Source of the DNA: a virus
Length of the DNA: 64,000 nucleotides
Reading direction: 5' to 3' (one strand)
Virus record (IMG/VR): IMGVR_UViG_3300045988_168437
Notes under the pieces: generated by a model
Database searches by the model: none
Told to the model about the DNA's origin: nothing
What the model saw: the letters and a program-made list of their open reading frames with translations, nothing else
Position numbers and translations under genes: made by a program
Shown here: in pieces, positions 313 to 45,872 of the stretch
Layout: each line of letters begins with the position of its first letter
Numbering within the stretch: position 1 is the stretch's first letter

Positions 313-840
313 ATGATGAAAAGAGAAAATGTTGTGAAATTTTTAGATTTATTACGTTCTGATGAAGTTAATGACGAAATAAAAGATTTATATATTGAAC
401 TATTAGAAGGACATATTCAAGATGCTCCAGGAACTCAAATTGAAATTATATTAGACTTAGACGGAGAAATTGATGAAAGATACTTTGTAGGAAATTCAAC
501 TAGAATGGATGTATATGAAGGCGATGCAATAGTTGTAGCAAGTATCAGATATGATGCAAACGTTACTTATGAAGACATGGGAGAATTATCAGATGCTTTA
601 GATGAATCTGAATATGAAAAATTCGTAGAATGGATATTTGCATACGAAGATATATCAGAAGATGATGAAAAAGAATATTTCGAAGAAAACTTTACATGGG
701 AAAATTTTTCAGAATTTAATCCTGATAGATTTAAAGAGCTAGAAGAAGAATCTTGGCAAGCAAATGTTGATTATTACGGATATGAAGAAATTGGGCAAAA
801 ATTATCTGAATGTATACAACAATTAGAAACTTTATTATAG
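313..840 (+). CDS. hypothetical acidic protein
   Basis: 175-aa ORF with SD-like aaagggga upstream; strongly D/E-rich; no family recognised. Confidence 0.6.
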   Translation: MMKRENVVKFLDLLRSDEVNDEIKDLYIELLEGHIQDAPGTQIEIILDLDGEIDERYFVGNSTRMDVYEGDAIVVASIRYDANVTYEDMGELSDALDESEYEKFVEWIFAYEDISEDDEKEYFEENFTWENFSEFNPDRFKELEEESWQANVDYYGYEEIGQKLSECIQQLETLL

Positions 841-856
841 GGGCAGCAATTGCTCC

Positions 857-913
857 TACTTTAAACCTACCAATGATGGTCCAAAGTCCATATGGAAAAA
901 GGTGATGGGAGTA
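857..913 (+). ncRNA. twister self-cleaving ribozyme (Tw-1, P1 type, no P3)
   Basis: P1 857-861/909-913; predicted cleavage U862/A863; P2 865-868/900-903; ACCAAUG linker; P4 876-879/888-891 with loop UCCAAAGU; 3' internal loop GAUGG 904-908. Nearly collinear with the rice Osa-1-4 twister as I recall it (..UAACACUGCCAAUGCCGGUCCCAAGCCCGGAUAAAAGUGGAGGG..). Confidence 0.8.
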
Positions 914-977
914 AATAAAGGCGAAGCTACTAAAATACTCGTCTATATATAAGAGTAGCAATTAAAAGGGGGTAAAA

Positions 978-1292
978 ATGAAGGTATATTTAGGGAATGC
1001 TTTTAGTTTACAAATGTTAGACACAACAAAGACTACAGATATAAAAGTAACACCAGTTGATGCATCAGTTGTAGCAAGTTCAGATTTTACATCAGTTATA
1101 GGTCATCCAGATACAGCTGCAGTAGTTTCAAACATCTTAGGAAAAGACGTAGCTTGTAATAGAGTTTCTGTTAGTTTAAGTAAAGGTGACATTTTATATG
1201 TAGCACAAGTTGTTGGTGGCAGACTTCCTGCTGGAGCTACCACTCTACCAGACGGATTTAGTTTAGTATTTTTAAAAGTTGTCATTCTATAA
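978..1292 (+). CDS. DUF1874 / STIV B116-like protein
   Basis: YLGNAFSLQML at N-terminus and IGHPDTAAVVSNILG...NRVSVSLSKGDILYV match the B116 pattern (FLTNAFSINML ... IGHDSTINLVNTL ... NRVEVKMNEGD) from memory; SD aaaaggggg. Confidence 0.75.
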   Translation: MKVYLGNAFSLQMLDTTKTTDIKVTPVDASVVASSDFTSVIGHPDTAAVVSNILGKDVACNRVSVSLSKGDILYVAQVVGGRLPAGATTLPDGFSLVFLKVVIL

Positions 1293-1357: not shown

Positions 1358-1495
1358 ATGAAAGTTAAAAAAGAAATTACAATTGAAGAAGAATTTGAAA
1401 TACATATGAAAAGCATGGAAGGGCATGTTTGCTATGGTTGCTCAGGTTGTAAGTTTGCTTACTATGGAGTTTGCCCATATGTTCAAGAGGGTTAA
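1358..1495 (+). CDS. small Cys-rich protein (45 aa)
   Basis: ATG 1358 preceded by SD gaagggaga; MKVKKEITIEEEFEIHMKSMEGHVCYGCSGCKFAYYGVCPYVQEG*; below ORF-track cutoff. Confidence 0.5.
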   Translation: MKVKKEITIEEEFEIHMKSMEGHVCYGCSGCKFAYYGVCPYVQEG

Positions 1496-1501
1496 TCCCT
1501 C

Positions 1502-1563
1502 TACTTTAAACTCACTTGACTAAGTCAAAAGGTCCAAAGTCCTTGAAAAGAGTGATGGGAGTA
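1502..1563 (+). ncRNA. twister self-cleaving ribozyme (Tw-2, with P3 hairpin)
   Basis: P1 1502-1506/1559-1563; predicted cleavage U1507/A1508; P2 1510-1513/1550-1553 (ACUC/GAGU versus ACCU/AGGU in Tw-1); extra P3 1516-1520/1524-1528; P4 1529-1532/1541-1544 (AAGG/CCUU versus AUGG/CCAU) with identical loop UCCAAAGU; GAUGG 1554-1558. Confidence 0.8.
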
Positions 1564-2613: not shown

Positions 2614-2623
2614 TATATATAAT

Positions 2624-2651
2624 AATCCCCTGATTGGGGGTTATTTTTTTG
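2624..2651 (+). terminator. intrinsic terminator ending the ribozyme operon
   Basis: Stem 2624-2630/2636-2642 (AAUCCCC/GGGGGUU) followed by AUUUUUUUG. Confidence 0.75.
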
Positions 2652-17176: not shown

Positions 17177-18142
17177 ATGAATAAATTTATAAAAGAAATT
17201 GAGAAAACAAATAAAATAGCCTTATTAACTTACGGAGGCAGCTATGCATATGGAACAAATGTAGAAGGCTCTGATATTGATTTAAGGGGTATATTTCTAC
17301 CTTCTAAATTAGAAATATTATCTATGACATCAGGAGACAAAGCATTGACTGACAATGAAACAGATACAGTTATGTACCCTTTAAAACAAATGATTCAACT
17401 GTTATGTAATGCAAATCCAAATACAATTGAAGTTTTAGGCACGAGAGAGCAAGATATATTCATAATATCAGAGGAAGGGCAAATGCTTAGGAAAAATGTA
17501 AATTTATTTTTAACTAAGAGTAAAGTTCATTCTGCCTTTTTAGGATATGCACAAAATCAATTAAGAAGACTTAAAAATGCAATAGCTCGAGATGATTTAG
17601 AACAGGCAGAAAAAGAGAAACATATTTTAAAATCAGTTGAAAAGAGAATGTCTGCTTTCGAACAGTCATATGCTCCAATAACAAATGGAAAATTAAAGCT
17701 GCACATAGAAAAATCAAATAAAGAAGATTTAGAAGAGGAAATTATGATAGACATGTGCTTAGAAAATTATCCATTACGAGACTGTAAAAAAATGTTAGAT
17801 GAAATGGCAATAACCTTAAAACAATATGGAAAATTAAATCACAGAAATAAAAAGAAAGACGAACAACATCTTCTGAAACATTCTATGCACCTTGTGAGAC
17901 TTTATTTAATGGGAATTGATATATTACAAGGAAATGGAATTAAAACTTACAGAGAGGACGACAGAGAGTTATTATTAGATATTAGAAATGGCAAATATTC
18001 TTATGAACAAATTTATAATATGGCAGAAAAATTAGAAGAAGAATTTAAAGATGTACTGCAAACAAGTAAATTGCCTGAAAAATTAGATTATAACAAAATA
18101 AATAACCTTGTTGCAGAAATAAATAAACAAATGTTAAAATAA
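17177..18142 (+). CDS. nucleotidyltransferase (Pol-beta superfamily, RlaP/PF10127-like)
   Basis: N-terminal TYGGSYAYGTNVEGSDIDLRGIF (GS...SD.D NTase motif). Confidence 0.7.
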   Translation: MNKFIKEIEKTNKIALLTYGGSYAYGTNVEGSDIDLRGIFLPSKLEILSMTSGDKALTDNETDTVMYPLKQMIQLLCNANPNTIEVLGTREQDIFIISEEGQMLRKNVNLFLTKSKVHSAFLGYAQNQLRRLKNAIARDDLEQAEKEKHILKSVEKRMSAFEQSYAPITNGKLKLHIEKSNKEDLEEEIMIDMCLENYPLRDCKKMLDEMAITLKQYGKLNHRNKKKDEQHLLKHSMHLVRLYLMGIDILQGNGIKTYREDDRELLLDIRNGKYSYEQIYNMAEKLEEEFKDVLQTSKLPEKLDYNKINNLVAEINKQMLK

Positions 18143-18217: not shown

Positions 18218-18304
18218 ATGAGAATGACAAGTAGAAGATTCAATAATATAGTTAAGAAAATGATTAAGGAGTTGATAGAAGATGATACTTGCAAAGAAAG
18301 TTAG
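18218..18304 (+). CDS. possible 28-aa basic peptide overlapping the tnpB start
   Basis: ATG 18218 after SD aaaggggg; MRMTSRRFNNIVKKMIKELIEDDTCKES*. Confidence 0.25.
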   Translation: MRMTSRRFNNIVKKMIKELIEDDTCKES

Positions 18305-19397
18305 ATTGCGCCCAAGTGAACTACAAGAAGAAAAATTATGGAAATCAGTAGGGACTGCAAGATTTATTTATAATTGGACTTTAAATAGGCAAGAAGAAAA
18401 TTATAAAGGTGGTGGTAAATTCATACCTGATAGTGTTCTTAGAAAAGAAATAACTCAATTAAAGAAAACTGACTTAAGTTGGTTAAATGAAGTATCTAAT
18501 AATGTTGCAAAACAAGCTGTAAAAGATGCCTGTGATTCATATAAAAGATTCTTTAAAGGATTGTCAGGTAAACCTAGATTTAAAAGTAGGAAAAGAAGTA
18601 AGAAGTCTTTTTATCATGACAATGTTAAACTTAAAGTTAAAGATAATAAATTAGTTAAGATTGAAAAAGTTGGGTGGATAAAAACCAATGAACAATTACC
18701 TATTGGAGTTAAATATACCAATCCGAGAATTAGTTATGATAATAAGTATTGGTATTTATCTGTAGGAATTGAACAGGAAGGAATCCAAGAAGAATTAACA
18801 GAAATATCATTAGGAATAGATTTAGGGTTGAAAAACTTAGCAATTTGTTCCGATGGTGCAATATATAAAAATATAAATAAAACTTGTACAGTCAAAAAAA
18901 TCGAAAAGAAACTAAAAAGATTACAAAGACAAATAAGTAGAAAGTATGAAAAAAATAAAAAAGGAAAGGAGTATGTCAAAACTAAAAATATTATAAAACT
19001 TGAAAAGCAGATACAACAAGTACATAGAAGGTTGACTAACATTAGAAATAACTATCTTCATCAAACTACGACAAGTATAGTGAAAACCAAACCATACAGA
19101 GTTGTAATAGAAGATTTAAGTGTTTCTAATATGATGAAAAATAAACATTTATCTGATGCTATAAGGAAACAAGGATTCTATGAATTCAGAAGACAACTTG
19201 AATACAAGTGTAAATTTAGAGGAATTAAGTTAGTCGTAGCAGATAGATTTTATCCATCGTCAAAAATTTGTAGCCAATGTGGAGAGATTAAGAAGGATTT
19301 AAAGCTATCCGATAGAGTATACAAGTGTGATTGTGGGCTTGTGATTGATAGAGATTTAAATGCAAGTATTAATCTTTCTAAATATAAATTAGCATAA
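18282..19397 (+). CDS. tnpB: TnpB (IS200/IS605-family OrfB, RNA-guided nuclease)
   Basis: KKVRLRPSELQEEKLWKSVGTARFIYNWTL N-terminus; RuvC triad candidates GIDLGLKNLA, VIEDLSVSNM, DRDLNASINL; zinc ribbon CSQCGE...YKCDCG. Confidence 0.85.
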   Translation: MILAKKVRLRPSELQEEKLWKSVGTARFIYNWTLNRQEENYKGGGKFIPDSVLRKEITQLKKTDLSWLNEVSNNVAKQAVKDACDSYKRFFKGLSGKPRFKSRKRSKKSFYHDNVKLKVKDNKLVKIEKVGWIKTNEQLPIGVKYTNPRISYDNKYWYLSVGIEQEGIQEELTEISLGIDLGLKNLAICSDGAIYKNINKTCTVKKIEKKLKRLQRQISRKYEKNKKGKEYVKTKNIIKLEKQIQQVHRRLTNIRNNYLHQTTTSIVKTKPYRVVIEDLSVSNMMKNKHLSDAIRKQGFYEFRRQLEYKCKFRGIKLVVADRFYPSSKICSQCGEIKKDLKLSDRVYKCDCGLVIDRDLNASINLSKYKLA

Positions 19398-19560
19398 TAT
19401 CATTAATAAGATAATGCTAATATGTAGGATGTGTTGTATCCGAATTTACGCCCTTGGAGAGTTATATCAAACGAAAGTAGGTTGTTATTTATAATTTCCA
19501 AAATCGAATTCGTAGAACAGGGAATTAAACAAGATTTATAGATATTTATAGATTTTTGGC
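19280..19560 (+). ncRNA. candidate omega/reRNA scaffold of TnpB (boundaries not determined)
   Basis: By analogy with characterised TnpB loci, the guide RNA overlaps the 3' end of tnpB and the right end. Hairpins are visible at 19390-19420 and 19494-19527. No right-end boundary could be fixed by eye. Confidence 0.3.
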
Positions 19561-44414: not shown

Positions 44415-45872
44415 ATGAAAAAGAAAAACAACGATGTTATCATTGAGTTTTTAGGGACCAGTAGAGACGAAGTTACTGGCTCATGTGTGCTAGTTTCATA
44501 TGTAAATTCAGATAACGAAAGGGAAAATATCCTAATCGAATGTGGAATGAATCAGGGGTGTCCTACTATATTATCTGACTATAATACAAATAAAAGAATG
44601 GTTGAGAAAGTTCCGTTTTCAAACATTAAATATATATTTGTTAATCATGTCCATGTAGACCATATAGGAAACCTTCCTACTGCCTTCAACAGAGGATTTA
44701 CAGGAGAGGTAATAACAACAGAAGACAATAGAGAATTAATGATTCCCTTACTTAATGACACATATACAATACATTTAAAAAATGTAAAAAAAATAAATGA
44801 AAAAGGAAAGAATTTAGATTTACTCTTTAATAAAATAGATGTACATACTGCTATTCATAAAACTAGAATCTTTGAAAAAAATATTATTCATAAATTAAAT
44901 GAAACTCTTTCTTTTAGATTCTTGCCAAATAATCATTGCGTAGGAGCTTGTCAATTAGAATTGTTTATTAAGAAACCAAGTGGGAAAATTGCTAAAATAT
45001 TTTATTCATCAGATTTAGGCTCTAATTACAATTCTAAGTACTCTCCTTTCTTGGATGATATAGTATATTCAACTACTTCTGACATAGCTATATTCGAAGC
45101 GACATATGGCAATAAAGACAGAAATTTTGCTAAGAAAAACGTAATCAACGAAAGAAAAGATTTAATTACACAAATAAAAAAATATACTAGTATGAATCAT
45201 CGAGTTTTAATACCTTCTTTTTCATTTAGTAGAAGTCAAATGCTTATGTCATTTTTATATGATAATTTAAAAGACGATAAAGATTTTGACAACATTTCAG
45301 TTATAGTCGATTCTAAACTATTAAATGACATTAATGGAGTTTATAGCAAAATACTTAAAGGAGAAAATAAAGAATATTGGGAACAGGTTTTAAGTTGGAG
45401 CAATTTTCATTTTGTTAAGGAATTTAAAGATACCGAAACCATTATTAAGAAGAAAGATATCCCAATGGTGATAATTTCAAGCGCTGGAATGTGTAATGCA
45501 GGGCATGTAGTAAGTTATGCTAAATCTATATTGCTAAATCCTAATGACTGCATGATATTTGTTGGTTATTGTGGCTTAAACACTTTAGGAAGTATGATTC
45601 AGAATAATAGACTAAATAGCGTTACAATAAACAGAGAAATATACGAAAAAAAATGCGATATCATTTCTTACAAAACTTTTTCTTCTCATATACAACAAGC
45701 AGAACTTATTGATTATATGAAAAAAATCAATACAGGAAAAATTTTATTGCATCATGGTAGTACTAGCAGTAAAGAGGAACTTAAATTAGCAGCTAAAGAA
45801 GAATTGTTCAAGGCAAATAAAACAACTCCTATTGAAATAGTAACAAATAAGAACAAGGAGTTTAGAGTTTAA
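44415..45872 (+). CDS. MBL-fold beta-CASP nuclease
   Basis: NHVHVDHIGNLP (HxHxDH); beta-CASP-like D, H (FSSH) and H (LHHGS) positions. Confidence 0.7.
   Translation: MKKKNNDVIIEFLGTSRDEVTGSCVLVSYVNSDNERENILIECGMNQGCPTILSDYNTNKRMVEKVPFSNIKYIFVNHVHVDHIGNLPTAFNRGFTGEVITTEDNRELMIPLLNDTYTIHLKNVKKINEKGKNLDLLFNKIDVHTAIHKTRIFEKNIIHKLNETLSFRFLPNNHCVGACQLELFIKKPSGKIAKIFYSSDLGSNYNSKYSPFLDDIVYSTTSDIAIFEATYGNKDRNFAKKNVINERKDLITQIKKYTSMNHRVLIPSFSFSRSQMLMSFLYDNLKDDKDFDNISVIVDSKLLNDINGVYSKILKGENKEYWEQVLSWSNFHFVKEFKDTETIIKKKDIPMVIISSAGMCNAGHVVSYAKSILLNPNDCMIFVGYCGLNTLGSMIQNNRLNSVTINREIYEKKCDIISYKTFSSHIQQAELIDYMKKINTGKILLHHGSTSSKEELKLAAKEELFKANKTTPIEIVTNKNKEFRV

What the first reader, a model, noticed from the sequence alone, without database searches (positions are those of the whole stretch)
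857..913. Twister ribozyme Tw-1
The segment is almost collinear with the rice twister sequence as I recall it: P1, then U/A cleavage dinucleotide plus A, P2, xCCAAUG, P4 with an 8-nt loop UCCAAAGU (rice UCCCAAGC), an A-rich strand, the P2 3' strand, GAUGG (rice GAGGG), and the P1 3' strand. The loop CC (881-882) can pair with GG 907-908, and loop GU (886-887) can pair with AC 869-870, reproducing the two twister pseudoknots. P2 and P4 differ from Tw-2 only by compensatory changes.
Basis: partly seen in the sequence, partly recalled or inferred. Interest (0 to 1): 0.8.

Follow-up and report, generated by a model that had tools for sequence, protein, structure and literature searches.

The report
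Phage twister self-cleaving ribozyme
Bases 857-913 are a genuine but ordinary example of the known twister self-cleaving RNA, one of two sitting between small genes of a large uncultured phage, where it most likely cuts the multi-gene messenger RNA into pieces.

Summary
857-913 (+) has every element of a type-P1 twister ribozyme: P1, the U862/A863 cleavage site, P2, a vestigial P3 (CAAUG), P4, the 8-nt loop and both pseudoknots. This pair explains "GAUGG" versus rice "GAGGG" as a compensatory change.

Rfam twister-P1 gives 34.4 bits, below the gathering score of 67.2. However, 13 other phage-contig twisters score only 33-55 bits, so that threshold does not discriminate here. A model built from 30 phage-contig twisters, without the window, gives 62.3 bits (E 3e-17). 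The next non-twister hit scores 14.9 bits.

In that set the two positions where Tw-1 departs from rice covary without mismatch or nearly so. The first T2 pair is G-C 19, A-U 9. The third T1 pair is A-U 13, G-C 8, C-G 7, U-A 2.

Each twister lies between a stop codon and the next ribosome-binding site, directly after a P0 hairpin. The same layout recurs in a syntenic phage and in arrays of 2-4 twisters on other viral contigs.

Verdict: a new member of a known class in a known (phage) context. Cleavage itself is untested. Interest is low to moderate.

The parts
840..856 (+). P0 hairpin directly abutting P1. Pairs are G840-C856, G841-C855, G842-U854, G843-C853, C844-G852 and A845-U851, with loop 846-850. 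G840 is the last base of the stop codon of ORF 313-840.
   Evidence: Folds. About 24 of 32 phage twisters have a hairpin ending 0-4 nt before P1. P0/L0 is a described auxiliary element (PMC11662667).
857..913 (+). Tw-1, a complete type-P1 twister ribozyme.
   Evidence: Rfam RF03160 gives 34.4 bits, E 7.2e-6. Own model R1 gives 62.3 bits, E 2.8e-17.
857..861 (+). P1 5' strand (UACUU), pairs with 909-913.
862..863 (+). Predicted scissile bond U862/A863. A863 is the conserved A that acts as general acid in characterised twisters.
   Evidence: Aligned to model positions 5-6 (UA). Columns T6, A7 and A8 are invariant in 30 twisters. The role comes from the literature (PMC5408937, PMC11662667).
865..868 (+). 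P2 5' strand (ACCU), pairs with 900-903 (AGGU).
   Evidence: The P2 columns are 100% paired in A1, but those rows were pre-filtered for P2.
869..870 (+). T2 pseudoknot 5' half (AC). A869 pairs with U887 and C870 with G886.
   Evidence: Direct reading. The first T2 pair is G-C 19, A-U 9, G-U 1, other 1 in A1.
871..875 (+). CAAUG, a vestigial P3 (C871-G875 closing AAU). The rice Osa-1-4 sequence as I recall it has the same pentamer here (recalled, not checked); P3 is reported dispensable in about 20% of twisters.
   Evidence: alignment shows P3 deleted. [quoted passage not shown]
876..891 (+). P4 (876-879 AUGG with 888-891 CCAU) and loop L4 (880-887 UCCAAAGU). The loop carries T1 bases C881, C882, A883, A884 and T2 bases G886, U887.
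   Evidence: P4 is 99% paired and T1 100% paired in A1.
892..899 (+). L2 3' linker AUGGAAAA, 3 nt longer than the consensus.
   Evidence: Shown as an insertion in the alignments. A strain variant U893C lies here. L2 tolerates insertions (PMC11662667).
900..903 (+). P2 3' strand (AGGU).
904..908 (+). GAUGG. G904 is the conserved catalytic G, A905 is the A.A partner of A884, and U906, G907, G908 form the T1 3' half.
   Evidence: Direct reading. The third T1 pair is A-U 13, G-C 8, C-G 7, U-A 2 with no mismatch.
909..913 (+). P1 3' strand (GAGUA).
313..840 (+). Upstream cistron (175 aa, no family match). Its stop codon overlaps the first base of P0.
   Evidence: A 58%-identical homologue precedes the orthologous twister in L008.
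978..1292 (+). Downstream cistron (104 aa, STIV_B116-like, PF08960).
1487..1501 (+). P0 hairpin of Tw-2. The stop codon of ORF 1340-1495 lies in its loop.
1502..1563 (+). Tw-2, the second type-P1 twister. It has a 5-bp P3, the same P1 arms and the same core variant as Tw-1. Predicted cleavage is at U1507/A1508.
   Evidence: Rfam gives 46.6 bits, E 3.5e-7. R1 gives 59.9 bits, E 1.7e-16.

Best explanation
Bases 857-913 encode a type-P1 twister self-cleaving ribozyme (Tw-1). It sits in the transcribed spacer between two same-strand genes of a roughly 140-kb uncultured phage of low-G+C Firmicutes type.

Shown by sequence analysis: the RNA can form P1, P2 and P4, a one-pair vestigial P3, and both pseudoknots (T1 is C881-G908, C882-G907, A883-U906 plus A884.A905; T2 is A869-U887 and C870-G886). 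All invariant core bases are in place. A second twister (Tw-2) lies 645 nt downstream.

Inferred from the characterised family: once transcribed, the fold positions G904 and A863 at the U862-A863 phosphodiester. The 2'-OH of U862 attacks the phosphate. The products are an upstream RNA ending in a 2',3'-cyclic phosphate and a downstream RNA starting with a 5'-OH at A863.

Inferred from context: cleavage cuts the polycistronic phage transcript between cistrons. The upstream piece is left with the P0 hairpin (840-856) six nucleotides from its new 3' end, a likely shield against 3' exonucleases. The downstream piece begins with a compact 5'-OH-terminated twister body ahead of the ribosome-binding site. 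Neighbouring cistrons can therefore acquire different stabilities or translation rates.

My confidence differs by step: about 0.95 that this is a true twister fold, about 0.85 that it cleaves at U862/A863, and about 0.55 for the mRNA-punctuation role.
For: Family match: Rfam RF03160 covers the full model at 34.4 bits, E 7.2e-6 and E 1.6e-4 in 9 kb. Model R1, built from 30 twisters on other viral contigs, gives 62.3 bits, E 2.8e-17, and 59.9 bits for Tw-2, with the next hit at 14.9 bits.

Covariation in that set: 96.7% of cells are paired against 65% in shuffles and 32-42% for slid partners, and 19 of 21 pairs change on both sides. An unbiased pattern scan with N at the T1 and T2 positions gave only Watson-Crick combinations in 26 of 26 sequences.

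Tolerance of the variants: in Osa-1-4 the T2 pair C14-G30 can be replaced by any other Watson-Crick pair and most T1 pairs by another pair with activity retained; the G13-C31 position that is A-U here is covered by natural covariation, not by that statement (PMC5113685).

Conservation of place rather than sequence: the syntenic phage contig L008 has twisters at both orthologous spacers, with different P2, P3 and P4 sequences. Eight metagenome contigs of the same phage keep Tw-1; seven are identical and one carries a linker change.

Context: in 32 phage twisters the element lies between a same-strand stop codon (typically 5-42 nt upstream) and the next start (typically 10-65 nt downstream). It is spanned by a long ORF in only 2 cases. 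A P0 hairpin abuts P1 in most. Arrays of 2-4 twisters occur on many viral contigs. The polycistronic-processing idea and the phage association are in the literature (PMC6765202).
Against: No cleavage assay or RNA-end data exist for this sequence. The Rfam score is below the gathering score (34.4 against 67.2). The thermodynamic z-scores are not significant. Twisters with a P0 hairpin cleaved less on average in vitro, 0.40 against 0.85 (PMC11662667). Two competing pairings are predicted: P0 can extend by U838-A858 and A839-U857 into the P1 strand, and C870-A872 can pair with U893-G895, which competes with T2. The alignment used for covariation was partly selected for P1 and P2 pairing and by motifs taken from the window, so only P3, the outer P4 pairs, T1 and T2 are unbiased. 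The biological role is entirely inferential. No promoter was mapped, and the transcript start lies outside the window.
Confidence: 0.85

Rival explanations
1. The element has the twister fold but is catalytically weak or dead. It would act mainly as a structured spacer or an RNA-protein binding site, or be a decaying copy of a duplicated ribozyme.
For: P0-bearing twisters cleave less in vitro (PMC11662667). The linker is 3 nt longer than consensus, and alternative pairings compete with P1 and T2. Tw-1 has the lowest Rfam score of the phage's twisters.
Against: Every invariant core base and every pseudoknot pair is intact. 94% of natural candidates tested by CHiTA were active, and L2 insertions were tolerated (PMC11662667). 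Tw-1 is identical in 7 of 8 strains, and the only change is in the unpaired linker. The orthologous spacer in L008 keeps a twister despite 23% DNA divergence nearby.
Confidence: 0.07
2. Tw-1 and Tw-2 act as a pair. Cleavage at both sites releases a 645-nt RNA (A863 to U1507) carrying two small ORFs. Its 3' end (UACUUU with a cyclic phosphate) re-pairs with the retained Tw-1 P1 3' strand (GAGUA). The nick is then sealed by reverse twister chemistry or a host RtcB, giving a circular mRNA.
For: The P1 arms of Tw-1, Tw-2 and a strain-specific further copy are identical (UACUU/GAGUA) although P2, P3 and P4 differ. The end chemistry is what RtcB uses, and engineered twister pairs are used this way (my own knowledge of the Tornado system). 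An RlaP RNA-repair-type nucleotidyltransferase is encoded at 17177-18142.
Against: Across 21 neighbouring twister pairs, the arm compatibility needed for circularisation (3.19 of 5 pairs) is no better than the reverse-topology control (2.86) and little above random (2.42). Identical arms are equally explained by local duplication. No RtcB or RNA ligase was found among ORFs of 150 aa or more. No literature support was found.
Confidence: 0.04
3. The resemblance to twister is a chance match in AT-rich DNA.
For: The element is short (57 nt), the window has 28% G+C, the fold z-score is not significant, and the score is below the Rfam gathering score.
Against: E is 2.8e-17 with an independent model, and the next hit is 14.9 bits. 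The core pattern is expected 0.02 times per window. A second copy lies 645 nt away with compensatory stem changes. A twister occupies the orthologous position in a related phage.
Confidence: 0.01

Closest known systems
Type-P1 twister ribozyme (Rfam RF03160). The best-studied P3-less example is Oryza sativa Osa-1-4.
   Same: The helix order P1-P2-(P3)-P4 is the same, with a U/A cleavage site, an A.G step next to P2, an 8-nt L4 loop, a 2-bp T2 and a 3-bp T1 plus A.A. The CAAUG junction replaces P3, as I recall it in Osa-1-4.
   Different: The first T2 pair is A-U instead of G-C. The third T1 pair is A-U instead of C-G, so the sequence reads GAUGG rather than GAGGG. The L2 3' strand is 8 nt instead of 5. 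A P0 hairpin precedes P1. The origin is a phage rather than a plant. All of these differences fall within the natural variation seen.
Twister, hammerhead and pistol ribozyme clusters in phage-like Firmicutes DNA (Roth 2014 and Weinberg 2015, as summarised in PMC6765202).
   Same: Several self-cleaving ribozymes lie 0.4-1.5 kb apart between small same-strand genes of unknown function. A RAGATH-class RNA occurs in the same genome.
   Different: This phage lineage carries only twisters in the region examined. The biological role is as unknown here as elsewhere.
P0/L0 auxiliary stem-loop of twisters (McKinley et al. 2024, PMC11662667).
   Same: The hairpin lies immediately 5' of P1 with a 0-nt linker.
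   Different: Here the stop codon of the upstream gene lies in or at the edge of P0. That suggests a role as the 3'-terminal hairpin of the upstream cleavage product, which the paper did not test.
Twister-sister ribozyme.
   Same: There is a vague similarity of stems and of some conserved bases (PMC5408937).
   Different: Twister-sister has no pseudoknots and cleaves the opposite strand. Tw-1 has both pseudoknots and the twister cleavage-site context, so it is not a twister-sister.

Membership tests
Twister ribozyme, type P1 (RF03160) | Helices P1, P2 and P4 in this order, with the RNA ends in P1 (P3 and P5 optional). | tested here: met
   Full-length alignments to RF03160 and to R1. The MFE fold of 857-913 gives P1, P2 and P4.
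Twister ribozyme, type P1 (RF03160) | Highly conserved core nucleotides: the N-A cleavage step followed by A, the G-C and U.A extension of P4, AAG in L4, and G-A before T1. | tested here: met
   U862, A863, A864, G879, U880, A884, A885, G886, C888, G904 and A905 match the columns that are invariant or at least 90% conserved in 30 twisters and the Rfam consensus capitals.
Twister ribozyme, type P1 (RF03160) | Pseudoknot T1: three Watson-Crick pairs between L4 and the 3' strand of L1, plus an A.A pair. | tested here: met
   C881-G908, C882-G907, A883-U906 and A884/A905 are present. All three pairs are 100% paired with changes on both sides in A1.
Twister ribozyme, type P1 (RF03160) | Pseudoknot T2: two pairs between the dinucleotide after P2 and the last two L4 bases. 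| tested here: met
   A869-U887 and C870-G886 are present. G-C/A-U covariation is seen at the first pair. In Osa-1-4, all three alternative Watson-Crick replacements of the T2 pair C14-G30 retained RA >0.60; the double mutant corresponding to A869-U887 (G13A/C31U) is not described in the text I read, where single G13 substitutions all gave RA <0.20 (PMC5113685).
Twister ribozyme, type P1 (RF03160) | Score at or above the Rfam gathering threshold (67.2 bits). | tested here: not met
   The score is 34.4 bits. The same shortfall holds for all 13 twister hits on nine other viral loci (32.9-55.0 bits) and for Tw-2 (46.6 bits). This is a curation cut-off, not a biological feature, and the E-values are significant.
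Twister ribozyme, type P1 (RF03160) | Site-specific self-cleavage giving 2',3'-cyclic phosphate and 5'-OH ends. | not testable with these tools
   This needs an in vitro transcription and cleavage assay or end mapping.
Twister-sister ribozyme | No pseudoknots, with cleavage in the strand opposite to that of twister. | tested here: not met
   Both pseudoknots are present and covary. Any overlapping lower-scoring hit from the same clan is suppressed in that table, so the only listed hit in the clan is twister-P1.

The most novel reading that the evidence does not exclude
The twisters of this phage share identical P1 arms and act in pairs. They would excise gene-sized RNAs, such as A863 to U1507 (645 nt, two small ORFs). 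The ends of such an RNA re-form a nicked twister and are ligated into a circular, exonuclease-proof phage mRNA. This would be a natural counterpart of engineered twister-based circRNA systems.
Probability: 0.04. Interest if true: 0.75.

Novelty: new member of a known kind. Interest (0 to 1): 0.3.

Why it matters
The finding adds a well-supported twister, in fact an array of them, to a roughly 140-kb phage. One protein of this phage is indexed in 261 blocks of the public metagenome collection. Twisters near phage genes have been known since the class was described, so the identification will not surprise a specialist.

Its modest value lies elsewhere. First, it shows that the Rfam gathering score for twister-P1 misses essentially all phage twisters sampled here. 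Second, it documents a repeated layout of stop codon, P0 hairpin, twister, ribosome-binding site and next gene. That layout gives a concrete, testable version of the mRNA-punctuation hypothesis for the still-unknown biological role of bacterial and phage twisters. Third, it offers a natural set of orthologous and paralogous twisters with compensatory changes.

Tried and rejected
- **Rfam gathering scan of the window:** it found only RAGATH-18. The whole-window E-value scan listed Tw-2 but dropped Tw-1. This was a filter effect, because Tw-1 reappears in the 401-nt and 9-kb scans.
- **Source of the window:** megablast and blastn of the region against GenBank phages gave no match. The variant-core pattern in GTDB species genomes gave only two unrelated MAGs, so the source organism is not among them. 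The closest cultured relatives by Pol III alpha are only 35-38% identical (Geobacillus virus E3, C. difficile phiCD211-like phages).
- **Further twisters:** a loose descriptor search on both strands of the window found none beyond Tw-1 and Tw-2.
- **Thermodynamics:** z-scores are uninformative.
- **Circularisation idea:** I tested P1-arm compatibility between neighbouring twisters against a reverse-topology control and found no directional signal. No RtcB or ligase was found among the larger ORFs.
- **Alternative helix:** a pairing between the P0 3' half (CUCC) and GGAG 908-911 exists in Tw-1 but is not conserved in Tw-2, so I dropped it.
- **Papers not held:** Roth 2014 and Weinberg 2015. The CHiTA supplements are also not held, so I could not check whether this exact sequence has already been assayed.

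Full report
**What is there**

The + strand of 857-913 reads UACUU U AA ACCU AC CAAUG AUGG UCCAAAGU CCAU AUGGAAAA AGGU GAUGG GAGUA. This is collinear with a type-P1 twister.

- P1 is 857-861 with 909-913.
- The scissile step is U862/A863, followed by A864.
- P2 is 865-868 with 900-903.
- The T2 dinucleotide is A869-C870.
- A one-pair remnant of P3 follows (C871-G875 closing AAU).
- P4 is 876-879 with 888-891, and the 8-nt loop L4 is 880-887.
- A linker is followed by G904-A905 and the T1 strand U906-G908.

It missed A883-U906. Crystal structures show T1 to have three Watson-Crick pairs plus a trans A.A pair (PMC5408937). The loop C-to-A change and the GAGGG-to-GAUGG change relative to rice are therefore one compensatory event, and A884/A905 keeps the A.A contact.

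**Is it more than chance?**

Rfam twister-P1 (RF03160) aligns end to end at 34.4 bits. E is 7.2e-6 in a 401-nt scan and 1.6e-4 in a 9-kb scan. The whole-window scan lost Tw-1 to the speed filters but found a second twister, Tw-2, at 1503-1562 (46.6 bits, E 3.5e-7). The core pattern CCAATG...TCCNAAG is expected 0.02 times per shuffled window.

I built a covariance model (R1) from 30 twisters taken from other viral contigs (alignment A1), without the window sequences. I searched the whole window with filters off. Tw-1 scores 62.3 bits (E 2.8e-17) and Tw-2 59.9 bits, and the next hit scores 14.9 bits. A loose descriptor search found no further copies on either strand.

**The below-threshold Rfam score**

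I therefore scored nine other viral loci. All 13 twister-P1 hits there fall between 32.9 and 55.0 bits, including ones with a canonical GC T2 dinucleotide and ones with a P3 stem. The four twisters of a sister strain score 34-47 bits. The gathering score thus excludes phage twisters in general and says nothing specific about Tw-1. Much of Tw-1's deficit comes from the deleted P3, which is expendable in about 20% of twisters.

**Covariation**

A pattern scan of viral contigs left the two variable pseudoknot positions as N. It gave 26 distinct sequences with intact P1 and P2.

- The first T2 pair was G-C (16) or A-U (10).
- The third T1 pair was A-U (13), G-C (9), C-G (3) or U-A (1).
- No sequence had a mismatch at either position.

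On the 30-sequence alignment, with pseudoknots written in, the results were as follows.

- 96.7% of cells pair, against 65% in column shuffles and 32-42% when partners are slid.
- 19 of 21 pairs change on both sides.
- T1 is 100% paired.

One caveat applies. 24 rows were pre-filtered for P1 and P2 pairing, and seven came from a pattern derived from the window's own loop. The unbiased evidence is therefore in P3, the outer P4 pairs, T1 and T2.

Mutational scanning of Osa-1-4 shows that single changes at pseudoknot positions kill activity. [quoted passage not shown] The A-U/A-U core of Tw-1 is therefore a standard natural variant, not a defect.

**Surroundings**

All genes for 58 kb are on the + strand and G+C is 28%. 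The window encodes Pol III alpha, NrdD and its activase, a DnaB-like helicase, ERF, a sigma factor, two tyrosine recombinases, C5 methylases, a beta-CASP nuclease and a TnpB. This gene set indicates a large phage. Pol III alpha is 35-38% identical to those of Geobacillus virus E3 and of 130-kb C. difficile phages.

The exact ORF 978-1292 protein occurs on 92-142 kb metagenome contigs and is indexed in 261 blocks of the collection.

- Tw-1 lies between ORF 313-840 and ORF 978-1292 (STIV_B116-like).
- Tw-2 lies between ORF 1340-1495 and ORF 1584-1859.

Each twister is preceded, with no linker, by a hairpin. The first is 840-856, which starts at the last base of the stop codon. The second is 1487-1501, whose loop holds the stop codon. 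This is the P0/L0 element described for about 10% of twisters (PMC11662667).

**Relatives**

The IMG/VR contig L008 (138 kb) is syntenic with the window. Identity is 77% over the twister region and 92-99% further on. L008 has twisters at both orthologous spacers. The one in the Tw-1 position has a P3 stem and different P2 and P4 sequences. The one in the Tw-2 position has a G-C T2 pair. The position and fold are conserved while the sequence drifts by paired changes.

Among eight contigs of the same phage, Tw-1 is identical in seven and has a single linker change (U893C) in one. Tw-2 is identical in all eight. Five carry a further twister 2.56 kb upstream of Tw-1, beyond the window's start. Two carry a fourth twister in a variable gene cassette.

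More widely, arrays of 2-4 twisters spaced 0.4-1.5 kb apart occur on many viral contigs, one of them together with pistol ribozymes. In 32 phage twisters the element almost always lies between a same-strand stop codon and the next start codon. About 24 have a hairpin ending 0-4 nt before P1.

**How it most likely works**

The fold is shown. The chemistry is inferred from the family: G904 and A863 flank the scissile phosphate, the U862 2'-OH attacks, and the products carry a 2',3'-cyclic phosphate and a 5'-OH.

The role is inferred from context, in line with published suggestions for bacterial and phage ribozymes (PMC6765202). The ribozyme would cut a polycistronic phage transcript between cistrons.

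- The upstream product would end in P0 plus six nucleotides, a terminator-like protective 3' hairpin without terminating transcription.
- The downstream product would start with a folded, 5'-OH twister body ahead of its ribosome-binding site.

Neighbouring genes could thereby get separate decay and translation rates.

Several observations count against full activity.

- P0-bearing twisters cleaved less in vitro.
- P0 can extend into the P1 strand.
- C870-A872 can pair with U893-G895, competing with T2.

None of these removes a required base.

**A more novel reading**

The three GAUGG-type twisters of this phage share identical P1 arms. Double cleavage would therefore release RNAs whose ends could re-form a nicked twister and be ligated into circles. 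I tested the prediction that the downstream 5' arm should match the upstream 3' arm better than the reverse combination does. Across 21 neighbouring pairs the values were 3.19 against 2.86 of 5 pairs, with 2.42 for random combinations. That gives no directional signal. No RNA ligase was found in the window. I keep this reading at about 4%.

**Verdict**

This is a new member of a known ribozyme class in its known phage context. Cleavage and biological role are untested. Interest is low to moderate.

Noticed in passing
window 19451-19524 (+), with ORF 18282-19397 (+): A RAGATH-18 RNA scores above the Rfam gathering score (67.6 bits). It lies 54 nt downstream of a TnpB-like ORF with HTH_OrfB_IS605, OrfB_IS605 and Cas12f1-like TNB domains. 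This fits the published IS607-TnpB/reRNA guide-RNA pairing (PMC11061315). The upstream ORF is an RlaP nucleotidyltransferase, not a TnpA, so this looks like a solo TnpB inside a phage genome.
   Followed up: partly
window 926-959 (+): A hairpin (GCUACU 926-931 with AGUAGC 954-959, 22-nt loop) lies between Tw-1 and the ribosome-binding site of ORF 978-1292. In the syntenic contig L008 two of its stem pairs change on both sides (GUUACC/GGUAAC), which suggests a conserved structure of unknown role in the 5' leader left after cleavage.
   Followed up: partly
window 1502-1563 (+) and P0 at 1487-1501: A second twister (Tw-2) has a 5-bp P3. Its P1 arms (UACUU/GAGUA) and 3' flank (GGGAGUAAAU) are identical to those of Tw-1, although P2, P3 and P4 differ. 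A strain-specific further copy (L145/L149 4465-4518) shares the same arms.
   Followed up: yes
L145, L146, L150-L152 at 323-388 (about 2.56 kb upstream of Tw-1, outside the window): Sister strains of the same phage carry a further twister upstream, with a G-C-rich T1 variant (UCGCAACU with GAGCG). It precedes a 147-aa ORF of unknown function and lies about 0.6 kb upstream of a RadC-like gene. The window cuts the ribozyme array at its 5' end.
   Followed up: partly
window 17177-18142 (+) and 44415-45872 (+): The phage encodes an RlaP-type (RNA-repair-associated) nucleotidyltransferase and a beta-CASP/RMMBL (RNase J/CPSF-like) nuclease. These enzymes could act on the 5'-OH and cyclic-phosphate ends made by twisters. 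No RtcB or RNA ligase was found among ORFs of 150 aa or more.
   Followed up: partly
L026 64-142 and 914-983 (-); L090 2534-2709 (+): Another viral contig has two pistol ribozymes (70.1 and 50.4 bits, both above the gathering score) interleaved with three twisters. Another contig carries a permuted tmRNA next to a twister.
   Followed up: no
window 2621-2645 (+): A terminator-like hairpin (10-bp stem followed by a T-run) lies just after ORF 2242-2613. It may mark the 3' end of the twister-containing small-gene transcription unit.
   Followed up: no
Default Rfam annotation would therefore miss phage twisters systematically.
   Followed up: yes
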